A stretch of 64,000 nucleotides of DNA from Octopus vulgaris (taxonomy: Eukaryota), in the NCBI GenBank assembly GCA_951406725.2, contig OX597823.1, positions 111,972,001 through 112,036,000 of the forward strand, read 5' to 3'. Under the pieces are notes generated by a model. The model was not told the DNA's origin. It saw nothing but the letters and a program-made list of their open reading frames with translations, and searched no databases. The first letter of the stretch is position 1; each line of letters begins with the position of its first letter. Of the stretch, positions 19,927-59,143 are shown one piece after another. The translations under genes were made by a program, and so were the position numbers.

Positions 19927-19999
19927 TGCCCAACGTGGGGCATGAACCCATGACCCTAAGATTAAGAGTGCCATGCTCTAGCGACTGAGCTAGCCAGGC
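19927..19999 (-). pseudogene. tRNA-Lys(CTT) pseudogene
   Basis: Minus strand gcctggctagctcagtcgctagagcatggcaCTCTTAAtcttagggtcatgggttcatgccccacgttgggca closely matches eukaryotic tRNA-Lys-CTT; anticodon-stem mismatch and altered T-loop/B box; T4 tract just downstream. Confidence 0.85.
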
Positions 20000-20485: not shown

Positions 20486-21196
20486 TACAATTTAAAAATA
20501 GGATAAAATCTTCATAAGAATTTATCAAGTAGTTAGCATGAAAAACCTCATAAGAGAAAAAAATCCATCAATTTTTTCACTTAAATATATTTATTTATAT
20601 TATATAGAGGGCAATATTTTTGTAGTTTTGACTTTAAGAGTCCCTCCTAGCGTGTGGCATTTATGTGTAATAATGCCCTCTATATAATATAAATAAATAT
20701 ATTCAAGTGAAAAAATTGATGGATTTTTTTTTCTGTTATGAGGTTTTTCATGCTAACTACTTGATAAATTGTTATGAAGATTTTATCCTATTTTTGAATT
20801 GTAAATTTGACCGGAGTATATTCAATACTGAATTTTTATTCTGAATAAGCATGTTATTACTGAAATGTAATTCGAAAAAGCCCGCCATTTACATAGATGT
20901 ATAAGGGGTGAACATTTCTACATGCTGCATTGGATATGACAGTTGTTCACCTGGTATGTTGTTTTTGTTCATTCATTATAAATCTTGAATTATGCTTGCA
21001 CTGAGGAGTGAAAAGTACATACCACTGCACTGATTACGAAATCACAGTGTGATATGCAGCTGAATTCTGTTTTTAAATGACTTGCTTCTAGAGAGTTGGT
21101 TTTGGTACGATATGTTTATTTATTTTAGTAGTTTTGACTTTACGAGTCCCTCCTAGTGTGTGGTATTTATGTGCAATAATGTCCTCTATATAATAT
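20486..21196. mobile_element. Fold-back plus terminally redundant hammerhead element (unit about 506 bp) in (TA)n
   Basis: Inverted arms at about 20486-20613 and 20674-20804; direct repeats at 20622-20690 and 21128-21196. Confidence 0.8.
20997..21058 (+). ncRNA. Type-I hammerhead ribozyme, canonical CUGAGGA core
   Basis: tgca|ctgagga|gtga...ttac|gaa|atcac agt gtgat|a|tgca; AUA triplet, 5-bp stem III. Confidence 0.85.
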
Positions 21197-21809
21197 ATAT
21201 ATATATACATGCATTTATATGTATATATGTATGTGTGTCTAATTATGTTTGTGAAAATGACTTCATATTTCCTATCATCATCACATGTATTGACTGACTG
21301 ATATCAGCAGCTTTGCAACTATTGTCAACAAAAAACTCATTCAAACACTGTCAGTTGTTTCCAGTTCACCTCATACCTGTGTCCATGATGTTTGTTGCTT
21401 TTGAGACAGGATGATTATTACCTTGCTTGGAAAAGCTGAGGGTTGGCTACAGGAAGAGCATTCAGCTATAGAAAAATCTACAACAATAAAATTCTATATG
21501 ATCCATGCAGGCATAATAAAAGGGGGCTTTGAAATGGTGATGATGATGGTGAAGAAGAAGAAGAAATGAGAGGAAGGAGAAGAGGGGAGGGGGAAAGGAG
21601 GGCAGTGGATAGGAGGCGGCAGGGGTAGTGGCGGTGTCAGCAGCGGCAGCGTTGGTGGCAGTGGTGAAGGAGAAGGAAGGGGTGGAGCGGTATGCAATTT
21701 TGAAATAGGTGGCTAAAGATATTGAAGGAGTAAATGTCTGAAACCAAGTTGGATTAAACGTTTAAAACAACAGAAAGAGAATTAAGTCATTTTGTAATCG
21801 TTTTATAAG

Positions 21810-21840
<31 letters not shown>

Positions 21841-22211
21841 GAGGATGAGAGAGAGAGTGAGAGAGAGAGAGAATGAGGCAGAAACTTCCTGCAATGCTTC
21901 TCTCCCTTGCCAAGAATTAAGCAGAGCCAATGAAAATGCACTCATATTACATAAAAAAAAATTCTAGTCAAAAATATGAGATCCTAAGATTTTGAATAAA
22001 GGGATCATAAAATAGAATTCTTAGAAACTCAGTGATACATGAGTTAGCTATTGGTTTACATGGATACACAGACACACGCATACATGCACACACACACATG
22101 CATGCACATACGCACATACACATACACAGATTGCACAGTTGATGTCTTTTCTCATATCTCCTCAAATGCTATCTTTGAAATTATTATTTACTATAAAAAG
22201 AAACTGCTATC

Positions 22212-22553
22212 TGTTGTGTCTGGGGAGAGTCATTTTCTTTTTGTGCCTTATTATTTAACACACTCACCGGTAAAATTTCCACTTTTTTCTTATTTTTATT
22301 GTCCTAAAATTTTTTTTGCGTCTTGCAACTTTTTCAATAGTTTTGAATAGTTTTTCAATGGTCAAAACTATGGAAAAGGTTGCAAGATGCAACGAAAATT
22401 TTAGGACAATAAAAATAAGAAAAAAGTGGAAATTTTACCGGTGAGTGTGTTAAATAATAAGGCACAACAAGAAAATGACTCTCCCCAGACACAATAGAAT
22501 ATGCTTCAACACACGAACTCATATAAAGAATCTTGCAAACCAAATCCCAAAAT
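22212..22553. mobile_element. Fold-back hammerhead element with 12-bp TSD
   Basis: Arms at about 22210-22346 and 22362-22498; gaaactgctatc at 22200-22211 and 22554-22565; HHR motif at 22368-22404 (+). Confidence 0.85.
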
Positions 22554-22794
22554 GAAACTGCTATCATTTTCCTGCATGTGCAATACTGCAGCAAACTTAG
22601 AATACAAACACCTTATGCAGTAAGATTATATGTTTTATCTTAGATTTTTTTGAATTAAGACATAACCATACTCAGTTTAATAAACTTTTAAGACCAAACA
22701 TATTTCAGAGTTCACGATTCTAATAACAATTCTAAACAAGGACCATTTTCAATCTTACTCTGATAAGTACAAATCATAATCAAACCACAAGATG

Positions 22795-36355: not shown

Positions 36356-37229
36356 TCATTATATTAAGTTCTATTACTACATGTAAATGCCTCACACTTT
36401 TATGGGACTCTGAAGTCAAACTGCTTTAATAAATATACACGGTACCGAAAGCAAGGATATGCAACTTGGAAGCTACAGATTTAGTCTCAAATCATTAATG
36501 ATTTCATGGTTAGCGTACATAATACACTTTCCAATCATCAGTACAAACATAATCAGAACACATAAAAATGAACATCTCTACATACCAGGGAGTAGCAAGC
36601 GTATCCAACAAAGCATATACAAATGCTCACACTTATATATCCATCTAAAAGGTGGGCTTCTCAAATTACATCTAGGTATACGTGTATAGTCGGAACAATT
36701 CAGCACCGAATTTATTGGTTTAATTTCAAATAATATATAAGGTTAAAATCTATAAGAATTTATCAAGTAGCCAGCATAAAAACCCGGCTATACACGTGTA
36801 CCGAGATGTAATTTGAGAAGCCCGCCTTTTACATGGATATATAAGTGGGAGCATTTGTATATGCTATATTAGATACGTTTGCTGTTCCCTTGGTATGTAC
36901 AGATGTTCATATTTATGTGTTCTGATTATGTTTGCACTGATGATTGGAAAGTGTATTATGTACGCTAACCATGAAATCATTAATGATTTGAGACTAAATC
37001 TGTAGCTTCCAAGTTGAATACCTTTGCTTTCGGTAGCGTGTATATTTATTAAAGTAATTTGACTTCAGAGTCCCATAACAGCGTGAGGCATTTACGTGTA
37101 GTAATGACCCTTAATATAATGAATGTATTTATATTTAAAGGGGAAAATTATGTATTTTGTATTAATTTTTTCCTGAACTGGTTTTTCACGCTGGCTACTT
37201 GATAATTTCTTATATAGATTTTATCCTTA
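36353..37229. mobile_element. Large fold-back, circularly permuted hammerhead element related to 20486-21196
   Basis: Arms at about 36356-36692 and 36785-37123; 36738-36784 is also the inverse of 37180-37229; HHR at 36933-36992 (+) and about 36485-36545 (-). Confidence 0.8.
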
Positions 37230-37312: not shown

Positions 37313-37487
37313 TAATAAATATTAGGGAATGAATCCAAAATTACAGGGAAAAAATCAGATTTAGGGTTAAATCCAATTTTATAGTAAAATATTATATAAT
37401 ATAATTCGAGACAAAACCACTATTTTAAAACCAAACAAGGAAAGACTTAATCAATACATAAAATTTTAATATAAATTAAATAAACCG

Positions 37488-37531
37488 CCACTACAAATGT
37501 TTCATGTCTGCTACCGACAATCTTCAGGTGG
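37488..37531 (-). ncRNA. Minimal type-I hammerhead ribozyme (left arm)
   Basis: Exact reverse complement of 37584-37627. Confidence 0.85.
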
Positions 37532-37583
37532 ATTTTCGATCTAATCAGTATCAAAATGTGATACTGATTAGAAGATCGAAAAT

Positions 37584-37627
37584 CCACCTGAAGATTGTCG
37601 GTAGCAGACATGAAACATTTGTAGTGG
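37584..37627 (+). ncRNA. Minimal type-I hammerhead ribozyme, canonical CUGAAGA core
   Basis: ccac|ctgaaga|t tgtc ggtagca gaca t|gaa|ac attt gt|a|gtgg; GUA triplet, predicted cut after 37623. Confidence 0.85.
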
Positions 37628-37711
37628 CGGTTTATTTAATTTATATTAAAATTTTATGTATTGATTAAGTCTTTCCTTGTTTGGTTTTAAAATAGTGGTT
37701 TTGTCTCGAAT

Positions 37712-37756
<45 letters not shown>

Positions 37757-40811: not shown

Positions 40812-41744
40812 ACATACATACATACATACATATATATGAATACCAATATGTAGGTATGTGGTACTTGCTAAGGCGAAGAATAGAAACTCTTCTAGAATTT
40901 TAAAATTATTAAAGTAAGGACGCCCTCGCTCACTTACTCATACATATGCACAGTGACACATTCTCAATATGCATAAAATGCAATCACTTTAAATCAGCCA
41001 ACATATACTCTTACAGGAAGTCATAGGCTGGTTTCCATTCAGAAATAGTCACTAGTTTTGATGTATGCATGTTATATCTTATCAGTATGGCATTAATATC
41101 AGAGACAGTGTTTATTGCTGATACAGTAGAACACCAGAATAAATTGCTTTAGAGTGCTGAATATTCTATATGTGTAAGATGAGACGAACGGATTTCACAT
41201 AACGATTAAGTATAGCTCGATATTTCAGGATATAAATAAATAAGATTCTGATGTGCACAGATGACTAGTTTTTTTTAACTTTATTTATTTATTTATTTTG
41301 TTAGCACTCAGTTATGCAAAGAAAAGTACCTTCTATTTTATCATAATAGACGTCTTGGAAGATTCTAAATTCCAAATATCAGCTCAATAGAAATGAAATC
41401 GTTTTTCGTTTTTGCATTTTAAAAGTGGTTGTATGTTGGTAAACACTTTCTTTAAATGAATAGGCCTTCAATATATGCTTGTAGTCATGTATGTATGTGT
41501 GTGTGTGTGTGTGTGCGAACTTGTGTGCATGCGTAAGTACATATTTACACTTTTTAATTTAAATATAACTATAATGTTAAATTTATATATTTGTTGTGCA
41601 AGATTTTGGATGTGAAATCGTGTATTGAAACAGATATTGTTGTATTTAGGAATGGTCATTTTGCCAGTTTAGCCAATAAAAACACACGCACTATATATTT
41701 GGTGTTACTTTGCTTCAGCGTTATTAATTTTTTACATTAATCTT

Positions 41745-55547: not shown

Positions 55548-55748
55548 TTTTTTCGTTTTTGGATTTGGTTTGCAAGATTCTTTATATGAGTTCGTGTGTT
55601 GAAGCATATTCTGTTGTGTCTGGGGAGAGTCATTTTCTTTTTGTGCCTCATGATTTAACACACACACTGGTAAAATTTCCACTTATTTCTTATTTTTATT
55701 CTCCTAAAATTTTCGTTGCGTCTTGCAACCTTTTCAATAGTCTTGACT
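55548..55748 (-). mobile_element. Single-arm copy of the 22.2-22.5 kb family with hammerhead at 55704-55740 (UUGAAAA core)
   Basis: cta|ttgaaaa|g gttgc aagac gcaac|gaa|aatt|t|tag. Confidence 0.75.
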
Positions 55749-56927
55749 CTCTAACATTTTGTCCTACAGTTAAGTTTATTCCTTGCTGATGTAGCAATAA
55801 AAATAATTGATAACAACACTCAAGGTAAAACAGGTGATAAATTTATAATGGAGTACATAGTTTTCAAAGGTGTCCTTTCATTTGATTTCAAATCCAATTC
55901 TATAGATATGGAGTTTACATTTTCTCAAGTATCAAGCTTTTCAGAAAAATATGATTTCAAAAGAAATAATGTATTTTATACTAGTCTCTAAATTTCAGAC
56001 AATCAGTTTTCAAAATAACTGGAACATCCATGGTTAATGCTAGTCTTAATTATTATATTAAACAAAACCCCAAAAGAGATTGTAACGATATAATGACGAT
56101 GGGGATGATGATGACAGCAAAAATGATGATGATGGAGGTAATGATAGGGATGAGGATGCTGAGGATGATGAGGATGATGATGAGAAGGAGGAGGAGGGGG
56201 ACTAGGAAAGAATCACTGAGACGACATGAGGAAAAACATTGGCAGTATACAAACCGAAATAGAAATGGCAATAATGATGTGTGTTAGCACAAAAAAAACA
56301 ACAACAATAACAAATGCATAGAAAAAACAATACAAAATGTCAAAAACTAACAAAGAATCAAATTCTCAAACAAAAAACATGAAAACCATACTCCCATCCG
56401 TTACTACACATACCCACTCAATAAAAATATAAACAACAAACAAACAATGACAAAAACGTTCCAACACCTACCCCCAAACCAACACACCACCACAAAAAAT
56501 AATAATGTATATAAAAAAAAACAAAATCAAATTACAAAATCTAAACTCAGCCTTCCAAAAACTGAATCAAATGAAGAACGATGATATAAAAAAAAAATAA
56601 TACACGAAAAAAGGGTCTTAGATGATAAAAGAAACTTACCTGTAGGGATAAATAACGAGAATTTTCCAATATTCCAAAAAATAACCAACAAATTACAGGA
56701 AATGAACATGAAGTAGATTCTATGGGAATAGCTTTTACAAACATCTATAGAATCCCCTGAATAAACAAAGACGATTTTTGAATACACAGAAGCCATGGCA
56801 TGTTGATTACCATACCATTTAATTGCAGCCGAGTACCAGTGAAACCAATTCATGTATTCCGCAGTGTATACATACAAAGTTATATATACATATATACACA
56901 TACATATATACACATACATATATACAT

Positions 56928-56983
<56 letters not shown>

Positions 56984-58008
56984 TCATATATATATAAATA
57001 CACACACATGTATATACAGATATGTATGTATGTATGTATGGGTGCATGTATGTATGTGTATGAGTGGCATATGCATATGTATGTTTTACTATCCCATGTA
57101 TATAACCACCACACATACATACAACCCACCATCATACACATATATAAATTTATGTACATTTATGTATATATATATATGTGTGTGTGTGTATGTGTGTCTG
57201 TGTATTTATAAATATATATATAAATATATATATAAATATATATATATATATATTCTTGTGTGTCTGTGGTATTTATGTACAAGTATATACACACACGGGT
57301 ATATGATGTTATGCAATAAATTGCCTTTCTTCACTGATAAACGAATGAAGACCATCACTGAATGTTTGGAATAGCATCGTCTTTCATAGCTTGTTGTTTC
57401 CAACTGAACATTTACCATTGAAGCTAAATGAGCAGATCACTGAGATGAAATAATCCTCGACGATGCAGCTGGGTAGGTAGGAATAAGGGTCTGTGGTGGG
57501 GGGAAATAAATGACATGAGAAATGAAGGGAAATGAAAATGAAAGAATATTGGAAAGAGGTAAGAAACAACATGCATCGTAAGAAAGAATGATGAAAGACA
57601 CTAATATTTTGAGAAATATGTATATATATATATATATATAAATATATATATAAATTTATATACATGTGTATGCATGAGGACTTATTTGTTTATATTTATA
57701 TGAGATGTCTAAATGCAGGCAAAGCATGTACTAAATATTTATTGTGAAAGAAAGTAAAAGTTCCATATATAATAAAGGAGAGAAAAGATATTCTTCATAA
57801 CAAAGTATATAGAATTTTTTTCTCTTTTTCTTTTTGTTTTTCCAATAAATGGTTTCACCTTTCTTTTTTCTCCCACTGAAATTAAATTGATCATTAAAAA
57901 TAGATGACAAAATTTTTCATTATTTAATTTCAAATATTTGGTAATTGTTATACATGGAAGAAATATCAGAAATAGTAGTTGATACTGAATTTTTGTTTTT
58001 ATATAACA

Positions 58009-58693
58009 CGAGCAACCCTAACCCCCGTCCAATGGACGGTGCTGAGTTGTCAAACATGTAAACCAAATTTTCTCAAAACAACTTGTCCGACCGTCCCATA
58101 GGCCTCCCCTTTGAGAAACACTGATTTAAGCTAAATTTGAGACACCAGCAAAAGAAGAAATAAAGATTGGCTTTTTTTCTATTCCAAAGAAAAACGATTT
58201 TATTCACACAAATATGCAACCGAAGAGTTTAAAGTACCAGTAATGATAAGGCTGTTGACTGAGGGAACACAAACATGGTTTAAATAGTAAGCTTGGCAGG
58301 AAAGAAACATGCCTTTAAGCAGTACAAAAATAACAAAAAATGGGAGGTGCAGTTATGTACAGGTTGACGGAAGAAAAGCAAGACAAAAACGATGCGTGCA
58401 AATGGGTTAGCTGGAGGTAAATCTAGATGGAAAAGCATGATCAATTTATGAGAACGTACCTGGGACAATAACAAGTTTATCCGATGAAACATGTAGCAAA
58501 TCAACTTGCACGTTCCCACGACTTTATCGATCGCATTCTCACCTGGAATCGATTTTTGTAAATTTTTCAAGACTTATACACGCCCTGATACCGTCGGTTT
58601 CTACATATCAAATTTGAACCCAATCGGATGGAGGATGCCGGAGATCCTAGAAGACACACACACAGACAGACAGAACGGATTTTATATAATAGA
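58009..58693 (-). mobile_element. Non-autonomous Helitron-like element
   Basis: Minus strand starts a^tctattatataaaa plus (tctg)n; hairpin ccgtccattggacgg near a ctcg^t end (imperfect CTRR). Confidence 0.6.
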
Positions 58694-58718
58694 TTTGTTT
58701 TGCATAAATTTGTTTAAT

Positions 58719-59083
58719 AACAATTGCAGCGTGGAAGGTGTTTATAAGCCATTTAAGAAACACACAAAAACTGTTAGATTCACTTCAACATTTAAATTTA
58801 ATTTGTCAAAATATTCTCGTCGCTTTGAGACCGCGACCTGTTCACAGACAAAATTCCATGCTGCATCTCGGAATTTTGAGATGCAGCACAGAATTTTGTC
58901 TGTGAACAGGTCGCGGTCTCAAAGCGACGAGAATATTTTGACAAATTAAATTTAAATGTTGAAGTGAATCTAACAGTTTTTGTGTGTTTCTTAAATGGCT
59001 TATAAACACCTTCCACGCTGCAATTGTTTTCGTTCCTGAACACGATCTCAGATCAGGTCACTTGCTATGCAAGTGCATCTCCG

Positions 59084-59085
<2 letters not shown>
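58719..59085. mobile_element. Near-perfect fold-back element with hammerhead-like motifs (GUGAACA core) on both strands
   Basis: Arms at 58719-58869 and 58878-59028; motifs at 58895-58945 (+) and 58802-58852 (-). Confidence 0.85.

Positions 59086-59143
<58 letters not shown>

What the first reader, a model, noticed from the sequence alone, without database searches (positions are those of the whole stretch)
55704..58945. Compensatory covariation of the catalytic 3-8 base pair across families (C-G, U-A, G-C)
Seen cores: CUGAAGA (37588), CUGAGGA (21001), CUGAUGA (36937), UUGAAAA (55704-55740 -) and GUGAACA (58902). Known: nucleotides 3 and 8 form a Watson-Crick tertiary pair in the active HHR, and swapped pairs can rescue activity. 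Both non-canonical cores change the two positions together and keep G5, A6 and A9. This is hard to obtain by decay and argues for selection on catalysis. Standard CUGANGA searches would miss these families.
Basis: partly seen in the sequence, partly recalled or inferred. Interest (0 to 1): 0.85.

Follow-up and report, generated by a model that had tools for sequence, protein, structure and literature searches.

The report
Swapped-core hammerheads in Penelope retroelements
Two families of jumping-gene tails, each with over a thousand copies in this animal genome, carry hammerhead-shaped RNA motifs in which a hidden core base pair is swapped (G-C or U-A instead of C-G); the RNAs likely still cut themselves slowly, but relatives with a broken pair also spread, so cutting is probably not needed for every jump.

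Summary
All five cores are present. The G3-C8 core (58902) and the U3-A8 core (55737-55731, minus) are family states, not decay: 94 of 100 copies each, among 1,640 and 955 exact-flank matches. Both are minimal type I hammerheads at the 3' ends of two sister Penelope-like retroelements; longer copies carry the RT plus GIY-YIG gene. G3-C8 persists in three subfamilies up to 20% diverged. The best reading is a Watson-Crick pair kept on long-lived lineages with mismatched side branches: weak long-term selection, at most two independent swaps. The 58902 copy itself has two private lesions. U3-A8 is published, also in Penelope elements. A natural G3-C8 family was not found in the open literature searched (one key paper unreadable); this scan noted G3-C8 before in phage and protist DNA. 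Cleavage is untested.

The parts
58876..59086 (+). Family A: short 3'-end copy (pseudo-LTR plus tail) of a Penelope-like element
   Evidence: 1,685 first-look candidates, best copies 96-97%; shared boundaries and two alternative 3' ends about 60 nt apart; linked to an RT/GIY-YIG gene through L116 and the 3' UTR shared with L380, L382, L174
58892..58948 (+). Minimal type I hammerhead, G3-C8 variant: core 58902-58908, extra G 58909, helix II 58910-58914 with 58924-58928, G12-A15.1 58929-58932, six-base palindrome 58932-58937, predicted cut after 58938. Private lesions at 58901 and 58931
58719..58869 (-). Inverted arm of the same insertion with a second G3-C8 core at 58845-58839 and the same two lesions
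   Evidence: 98.7% to the + arm
55551..55752 (-). Family B (youngest subfamily, B3): short 3'-end copy of the sister Penelope-like element
   Evidence: 931 first-look candidates; longer copies L377, L378, L379, L246, L247 carry the RT/GIY-YIG gene upstream on the same strand
55704..55740 (-). Minimal type I hammerhead, U3-A8 variant: core 55737-55731, extra G 55730, five-pair helix II, four-base palindrome 55711-55708, predicted cut after 55707, three-pair helix I; matches the family majority
   Evidence: fold z -2.4
22210..22557 (.). Second family B insertion, two inverted arms, both cores damaged
   Evidence: 93% to the 55551-55752 copy
37395..37720 (.). Family C: inverted pair of a very young repeat with a canonical C3-G8 minimal hammerhead (core 37588-37594, +)
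   Evidence: 20 of 20 fetched copies identical over the motif; no coding partner looked for
20997..21057 (+). Family D hammerhead, canonical C3-G8 (core 21001-21007), with a real helix III
   Evidence: a Penelope-type GIY-YIG frame lies near copy L088
36933..36992 (+). Older relative of family D, canonical C3-G8 (core 36937-36943), helix I damaged

Best explanation
The two motifs are minimal hammerheads at the 3' ends of two sister Penelope-like retroelements, whose long-lived lineages kept a swapped Watson-Crick pair at core positions 3 and 8 (G-C in family A, U-A in family B), likely because slow self-cleavage is favoured over long times although not needed for each jump. Shown: family-wide swaps, link to RT/GIY-YIG genes, mismatched side subfamilies, kept helices. 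Inferred: two motifs pair through the palindromic helix III (or are helped by the element's protein) and cut after U17; cutting would trim read-through transcripts of full elements; most genomic copies come from uncut RNA, so lineages that lose the pair (U.G, C.A, G.G) can still amplify for a while but left no younger descendants in the sample.
For: Family states; G3-C8 in the old subfamily A0, 36 of 56, with N7, loop II and helix II changed (median divergence 0.20). PLE link: 665-aa stop-free RT/GIY-YIG frame 670 nt upstream of a U3-A8 core (L377; Pfam hits below cut-off; Atlas clusters with RVT_1 and GIY-YIG at 0.97); sister gene 45% identical for family A. U4, G5, A6, A9 were free in the subfamily patterns and are invariant in 10 of 10 majority sequences, against 21 of 82 downstream columns. 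The 3' strand of helix I and the helix III segment were in no subfamily pattern, yet stay complementary and self-complementary while their letters change. Tree with 3 and 8 masked: the U-A subfamilies E3 and B2 have 2 and 1 private changes, the mismatched E2, B0, B1 have 11, 5, 5. Lab data: only the G:C swap rescues a hammerhead core (PMC9901934); C3G/G8C partly rescues a PLE hammerhead, and dead mutants still insert in vitro (PMC11167929). 0 of 30 downstream-anchored copies begin at the predicted cut.
Against: No cleavage measured. Mismatched states were majority in four subfamilies of B over a long span, and a ladder reading (pair lost and regained on the main line) is not excluded; majorities rest on 4-30 copies and B0's age (0.19) does not fit its place. 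Within B alone core invariance is weak (46 of 83 downstream columns invariant; 0.55^4 = 0.09). Helix I of young B is three pairs. In PMC9901934 the U-A double change was not among the rescued ones. Two of six family A copies with full UTR or ORF carry G8. No step towards G3-C8 was found.
Confidence: 0.6

Rival explanations
1. The hammerhead fold is kept as a structural or protein-binding signal (or overlaps a promoter) and does not need to cut; positions 3 and 8 drift, and the paired states are what happened to be in the successful masters.
For: Five amplified groups lack a Watson-Crick pair; copies derive from uncut RNA; catalysis not needed for insertion in vitro and no RNA ends at the cut site in the anole element (PMC11167929); Naiads thrive without hammerheads (PMC8557442).
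Against: G3-C8 needs two transversions and lands on the one swap that rescues activity in the lab; it held through three subfamilies; in B no subfamily fixed a transversion at 3 or 8 or any change at 4, 5, 6, 9.
Confidence: 0.27
2. Strict covariation: every transposing master needs a fully paired, active core; mismatched copies are decay after insertion.
For: Young subfamilies are 94 of 100 paired; T-to-C at position 3 may be a hot mutation.
Against: U.G 17 of 21 and 36 of 58, C.A 6 of 6 and 6 of 7 far exceed copy divergence of 9-19%; 5 of 20 G.G copies share five linked changes.
Confidence: 0.08
3. The motifs are chance look-alikes or decayed canonical hammerheads.
For: No Rfam hammerhead match; fold z-scores are modest; the 58902 copy has A14G.
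Against: Thousands of copies with the same variant core, control 0; all hallmarks of PLE minimal hammerheads and the expected place behind the gene.
Confidence: 0.02

Closest known systems
Minimal type I hammerheads in pseudo-LTRs of metazoan Penelope-like elements (Cervera and de la Pena 2014, PMC4209133)
   Same: Type I, no stable helix III, palindrome at 15.1-16.1, extra base between 9 and 10.1, G10.1-C11.1, place at the element's 3' end, mostly solo or inverted copies. Their Schistosoma family Sm4/Cercyon has the very core UUGAAAA; their Saccoglossus example has U3.G8.
   Different: In the text of their alignment of representatives (Fig. S3) no core begins with G3; cephalopods are not listed; no subfamily history of the pair.
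Natural U3-A8 hammerheads (Perreault et al. 2011, PMC3088659)
   Same: Compensated 3-8 pair in nature
   Different: Only U3-A8 named in the passage read; not G3-C8, not high-copy retroelement families
Engineered C3G/G8C double mutants (PMC11167929; PMC9901934; review PMC8495972)
   Same: Same G3-C8 core; partly or well rescued activity, also in a PLE hammerhead
   Different: Made in the lab; here it is the natural state of a family
Neptune/Nematis-type EN+ Penelope-like elements (PMC8557442)
   Same: RT then C-terminal GIY-YIG with two cysteines between the motifs, CX4CxxC linker, inverted 5'-truncated copies, tail
   Different: Clade not placed by a tree; tail here about 60 nt against 30-40
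Animal non-LTR retrozymes (bioRxiv 10.64898/2026.07.22.740005)
   Same: Non-autonomous PLE-derived units with type I hammerheads
   Different: Defined by tandem units; here copies are single or inverted 3' ends

Membership tests
PLE minimal hammerhead | Type I fold with helices I and II around the core | tested here: met
PLE minimal hammerhead | Core U4 G5 A6, A9, G12 A13 A14 A15.1, U16.1, H17 | tested here: met
   family majorities; not met by the 58902 copy at position 14
PLE minimal hammerhead | C3-G8 (or published U3-A8) | tested here: not met
   family A is G3-C8; family B meets the published U3-A8 form
PLE minimal hammerhead | Extra base between 9 and 10.1; G10.1-C11.1; palindromic helix III segment | tested here: met
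   G10.1 and C11.1 were fixed in the search patterns; three older subfamilies have two unpaired purines inside the palindrome
PLE minimal hammerhead | Lies in the terminal repeat of a PLE | tested here: met
   B directly; A through an inverted ORF and a shared 3' UTR
PLE minimal hammerhead | Self-cleavage as dimer or with protein help | not testable with these tools
   no assay; contigs cannot show RNA ends
EN+ Penelope-like element | Single ORF, RT then GIY-YIG with CCHH | tested here: met
   L377; Pfam RVT_1 E 0.008 and GIY_YIG_2 E 0.013, both below cut-off; Atlas
EN+ Penelope-like element | Inverted truncated copies and a tail at one end | tested here: met
EN+ Penelope-like element | Full element with direct pseudo-LTRs at both ends | tested here: inconclusive
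   three long B loci are 5'-truncated or have an inverted 5' repeat
Neptune/Nematis clades | CX2-5CxxC linker; RT phylogeny | tested here: inconclusive
   linker present; no tree built
Rfam hammerhead families | Score at a hammerhead covariance model | tested here: not met
   none at gathering score in the window, none at E 10 in 58700-59080 or in 10 small loci
Non-LTR retrozyme | Tandem full units, circular RNA | tested here: not met
   copies read are single or inverted; circular RNA not testable

The most novel reading that the evidence does not exclude
Family A is the first animal retroelement family known to run on a natural, active G3-C8 hammerhead, held through three subfamilies and thousands of copies, and the two sister lineages preserve a dated fossil record of a tertiary catalytic base pair in which unpaired masters spread briefly and died out, showing that Penelope hammerhead cleavage is selected at the lineage level rather than per jump.
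Probability: 0.35. Interest if true: 0.68.

Novelty: new variant of a known kind. Interest (0 to 1): 0.5.

Why it matters
The function of hammerheads in endonuclease-bearing Penelope elements is stated to be unclear (PMC8557442), and the one biochemical test found them dispensable for insertion in vitro (PMC11167929). These families supply a natural allelic series at the catalytic 3-8 pair (G-C, U-A, U.G, C.A, G.G) with known relative success and age, so the question becomes directly testable. They also show that CUGANGA descriptors and Rfam miss thousands of motifs in one genome (G3-C8 pattern 10,964 matches against 4,154 for its control), which bears on claims that some PLE clades lack hammerheads.

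Tried and rejected
Rfam: only microsatellite and hairpin miRNA look-alikes. A C3-G8 sister of family A: patterns allowing C3 or A3 returned mostly decayed A and B copies; none of 100 listed G8 copies of A has C3; two lone C3-G8 motifs with an A0-like helix II were seen, one fetched, not assignable. Intermediates to G3-C8: G.G 4 and C.C 1 of 56 in A0, not a subfamily. DNA homology of A and B downstream of the motif is weak (1 of 6 comparisons above all 300 shuffles, one at 1 of 300), so kinship rests on protein and motif. The probabilities printed for ten core columns were discarded because six of the ten were fixed in search patterns. Thermodynamic dimer folding was uninformative. A generic hammerhead scan of the window returned nothing, a script fault. 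No RNA holder listed on record; four runs guessed to be RNA hold family A as contigs, which cannot show ends or strand. No solved structure matches the ORF. loci were chosen for C3 or A3 and were used in trees but not in tallies; 47 of 226 anchored copies were dropped from the tree as too short, and two in it were mis-anchored; 11 copies were skipped. Lunse 2017, Przybilski 2007 and two other papers were not held.

Full report
Setting. The window is C10:111,972,001-112,036,000 of a 2.8-Gb animal genome in 227 contigs, AT-rich and full of microsatellites; it looks like an octopus (my inference from recalled traits, not established). No protein of the two elements lies in the window.

Observation. 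All five cores are present with hammerhead arms. The 58902 motif sits on one arm of an inverted insertion (58719-58869 and 58876-59086) and has a mirror core at 58845-58839. Compared with the 30 best genomic loci it has two changes that most relatives lack, at 58901 and 58931 (A14 to G); contigs of four public runs also show A at 58931 almost throughout. This copy is probably inactive (inference). The 55704-55740 motif equals its family majority.

Family states. Searching with the seven core letters free gave 1,640 matches for family A and 955 for family B, controls 0. Hand tallies of the first 100 listed: A, 94 G3-C8 and no C3-G8; B, 94 U3-A8, 6 C3.A8, no G8. A looser G3-C8 pattern gave 10,964 matches against 4,154 for its control. 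Ten of the 30 loci share one identical composite arrangement, so counts overstate independent insertions. Family C has CTGAAGA in 20 of 20 fetched copies; family D has C3-G8 in the 8 of 20 copies my pattern anchored.

What the elements are. Most copies are 200-250-nt units with two alternative 3' ends about 60 nt apart, frequent inverted arms and (TA)n flanks, as described for Penelope-like elements (PMC8557442, passages). Three B copies share up to 1,350 nt upstream that encode a PLE C-terminus; that protein has 3,161 first-look candidates in the genome. L377 holds a 665-aa stop-free frame with YVDD, a CX4CxxC linker and a GIY-YIG domain, 670 nt upstream of a TTGAAAA core on the same strand; L378 and L379 are alike. 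Pfam hits are below cut-off; the Atlas's nearest clusters carry RVT_1 and GIY-YIG. For family A, L116 and L383 have an inverted ORF piece abutting the motif, 40-52% identical to the B protein, and the UTR behind the L116 ORF matches the sequence upstream of the motif in L382, L380 and L174. A and B are therefore sister PLEs; both have an extra G after A9 and a near-identical helix II.

History of the pair. Patterns diagnostic for older subfamilies, core free, tallied by hand over all matches: E1 U.G 17 of 21; E2 C.A 6 of 6, control 1; E3 U-A 12, C.A 3, U.G 2, G.A 2 of 19; B1 U.G 36, U-A 11, C-G 6, other 5 of 58; A0 G-C 36, A.C 6, G.G 4, G.A 3, other 7 of 56. A pattern for B0 found only 2 matches; B0 rests on 7 copies, 6 C.A. 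A tree of 179 copies with 3 and 8 masked separates these groups. Majority sequences give U.G, C.A, U-A, C.A, U.G, U-A, U-A for E1, E2, E3, B0, B1, B2, B3 and G-C for A0, A1, A2; median copy divergence 0.19, 0.17, 0.11, 0.19, 0.09, 0.08, 0.06 and 0.20, 0.05, 0.01. Their tree is a ladder (bootstrap 77-100); E2, B0, B1 have 11, 5, 5 private changes, E3 and B2 have 2 and 1. A U-A trunk with four one-step side branches needs four changes, the ladder path seven. In A, 114 places have G8; of 100 listed 97 are G.G, 26 of them one variant on C16; of 20 fetched, 5 share five linked changes, one of which is absent from all 45 other copies, so a G.G master amplified a little.

Is the fold selected? U4, G5, A6 and A9 are invariant in all ten majorities while 21 of 82 downstream columns are (46 of 83 within B); this is suggestive (about 0.005 overall, 0.09 within B, uncorrected for kinship). 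Helix I was replaced on both strands between B0 and B1, and the helix III segment changed three times while staying self-complementary. Helix II and, for older groups, GAAA were fixed in the patterns and count for nothing.

Mechanism. As for other PLE minimal hammerheads (PMC4209133, main text parts 1-2 of 4 and supplement parts 1-2 of 3) two motifs would pair through helix III and cut slowly after U17. None of 30 downstream-anchored A copies starts at that site, so the inserted RNA was uncut or rejoined. In the anole element single C3G or G8C mutants are dead, the double mutant is partly rescued, cutting needs the protein, and mutants insert normally (PMC11167929, part 1 and passages). In a full pairwise scan only the G:C swap rescued the core (PMC9901934, passages); G8C costs 100,000-fold (PMC8495972, passage). 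This fits mismatched masters spreading for a time and paired cores persisting. That cutting gives the long-term advantage is inferred.

What is known. Natural U3-A8: PMC3088659 (part 3 of 8 and passages) and about 1,300 motifs in Schistosoma PLEs; the supplement's alignment shows UUGAUAA, UUGAAAA and one U3.G8, and no G3 core in its text (figures not visible as such). Seven full-text searches for G3-C8 in several spellings found only engineered mutants (also PMC3884650, passages). Lunse et al. 2017, which surveys PLE hammerhead variants, and Przybilski and Hammann 2007 were not held and may bear on novelty. A 2026 octopus repeat annotation has no word hammerhead or ribozyme (PMC13282606, term search). 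PMC6765202 and PMC6155905 (passages) and the retrozyme preprint (part 1 of 5) added nothing on 3-8. Earlier notes of this scan report G3-C8 in two phages and behind protist PLE genes, unchecked leads.

Verdict. Real, family-wide, old; a new variant of a known kind. Interest 0.5.

Noticed in passing
5' edge of family A, window 58879-58881; L008, L174, L380-L383: Most A copies start about 24 nt before the core. Copies that reach further have a branch-point-like CTAAC, a pyrimidine run and AG exactly at that edge (4 of 88, plus L008, L174), like a 3' splice site; the Drosophila virilis Penelope intron is reported to end at helix I.
   Followed up: partly
window 37395-37720: Family C is very young: 45 hits at 100% over 131 nt among the 40 candidate regions scored; possibly still active. 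Partner gene not sought.
   Followed up: partly
window 20901-21200, 20615-20694, 36526-36952; L088/L161: Family D hammerhead has a true four-to-five-pair helix III and a long loop II; three of eight anchored copies have U4C; a Penelope-type endonuclease frame lies 1 kb downstream of one copy.
   Followed up: partly
L103, L104, L109-L111, L120, L124, L128-L130 (contig C1); C16:1.3-9.3 Mb: A fixed inverted family A composite recurs in 10 of 30 loci, and 23 identical G.G copies cluster on C16: probably carried by larger repeats or duplications.
   Followed up: no
family A and B copies: T-to-C changes look raised in ATTG context (12 of 128 in A, mostly one site, against 1-2% elsewhere; 1 of 37 at B position 3), which may explain scattered C3 copies in B.
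   Followed up: partly
window 19927-19999, minus: tRNA-like Rfam match, 33.3 bits; perhaps a tRNA-derived SINE head.
   Followed up: no
window 41589-41662, minus: Old fragment of the B lineage, 74% over 74 nt, without the hammerhead.
   Followed up: no
L041: About a dozen tandem copies of a 27-nt piece holding the B core upstream of a full copy.
   Followed up: no
window 58870-59085: Family A is held by public runs of five coded organisms, so it predates or crosses species.
   Followed up: partly
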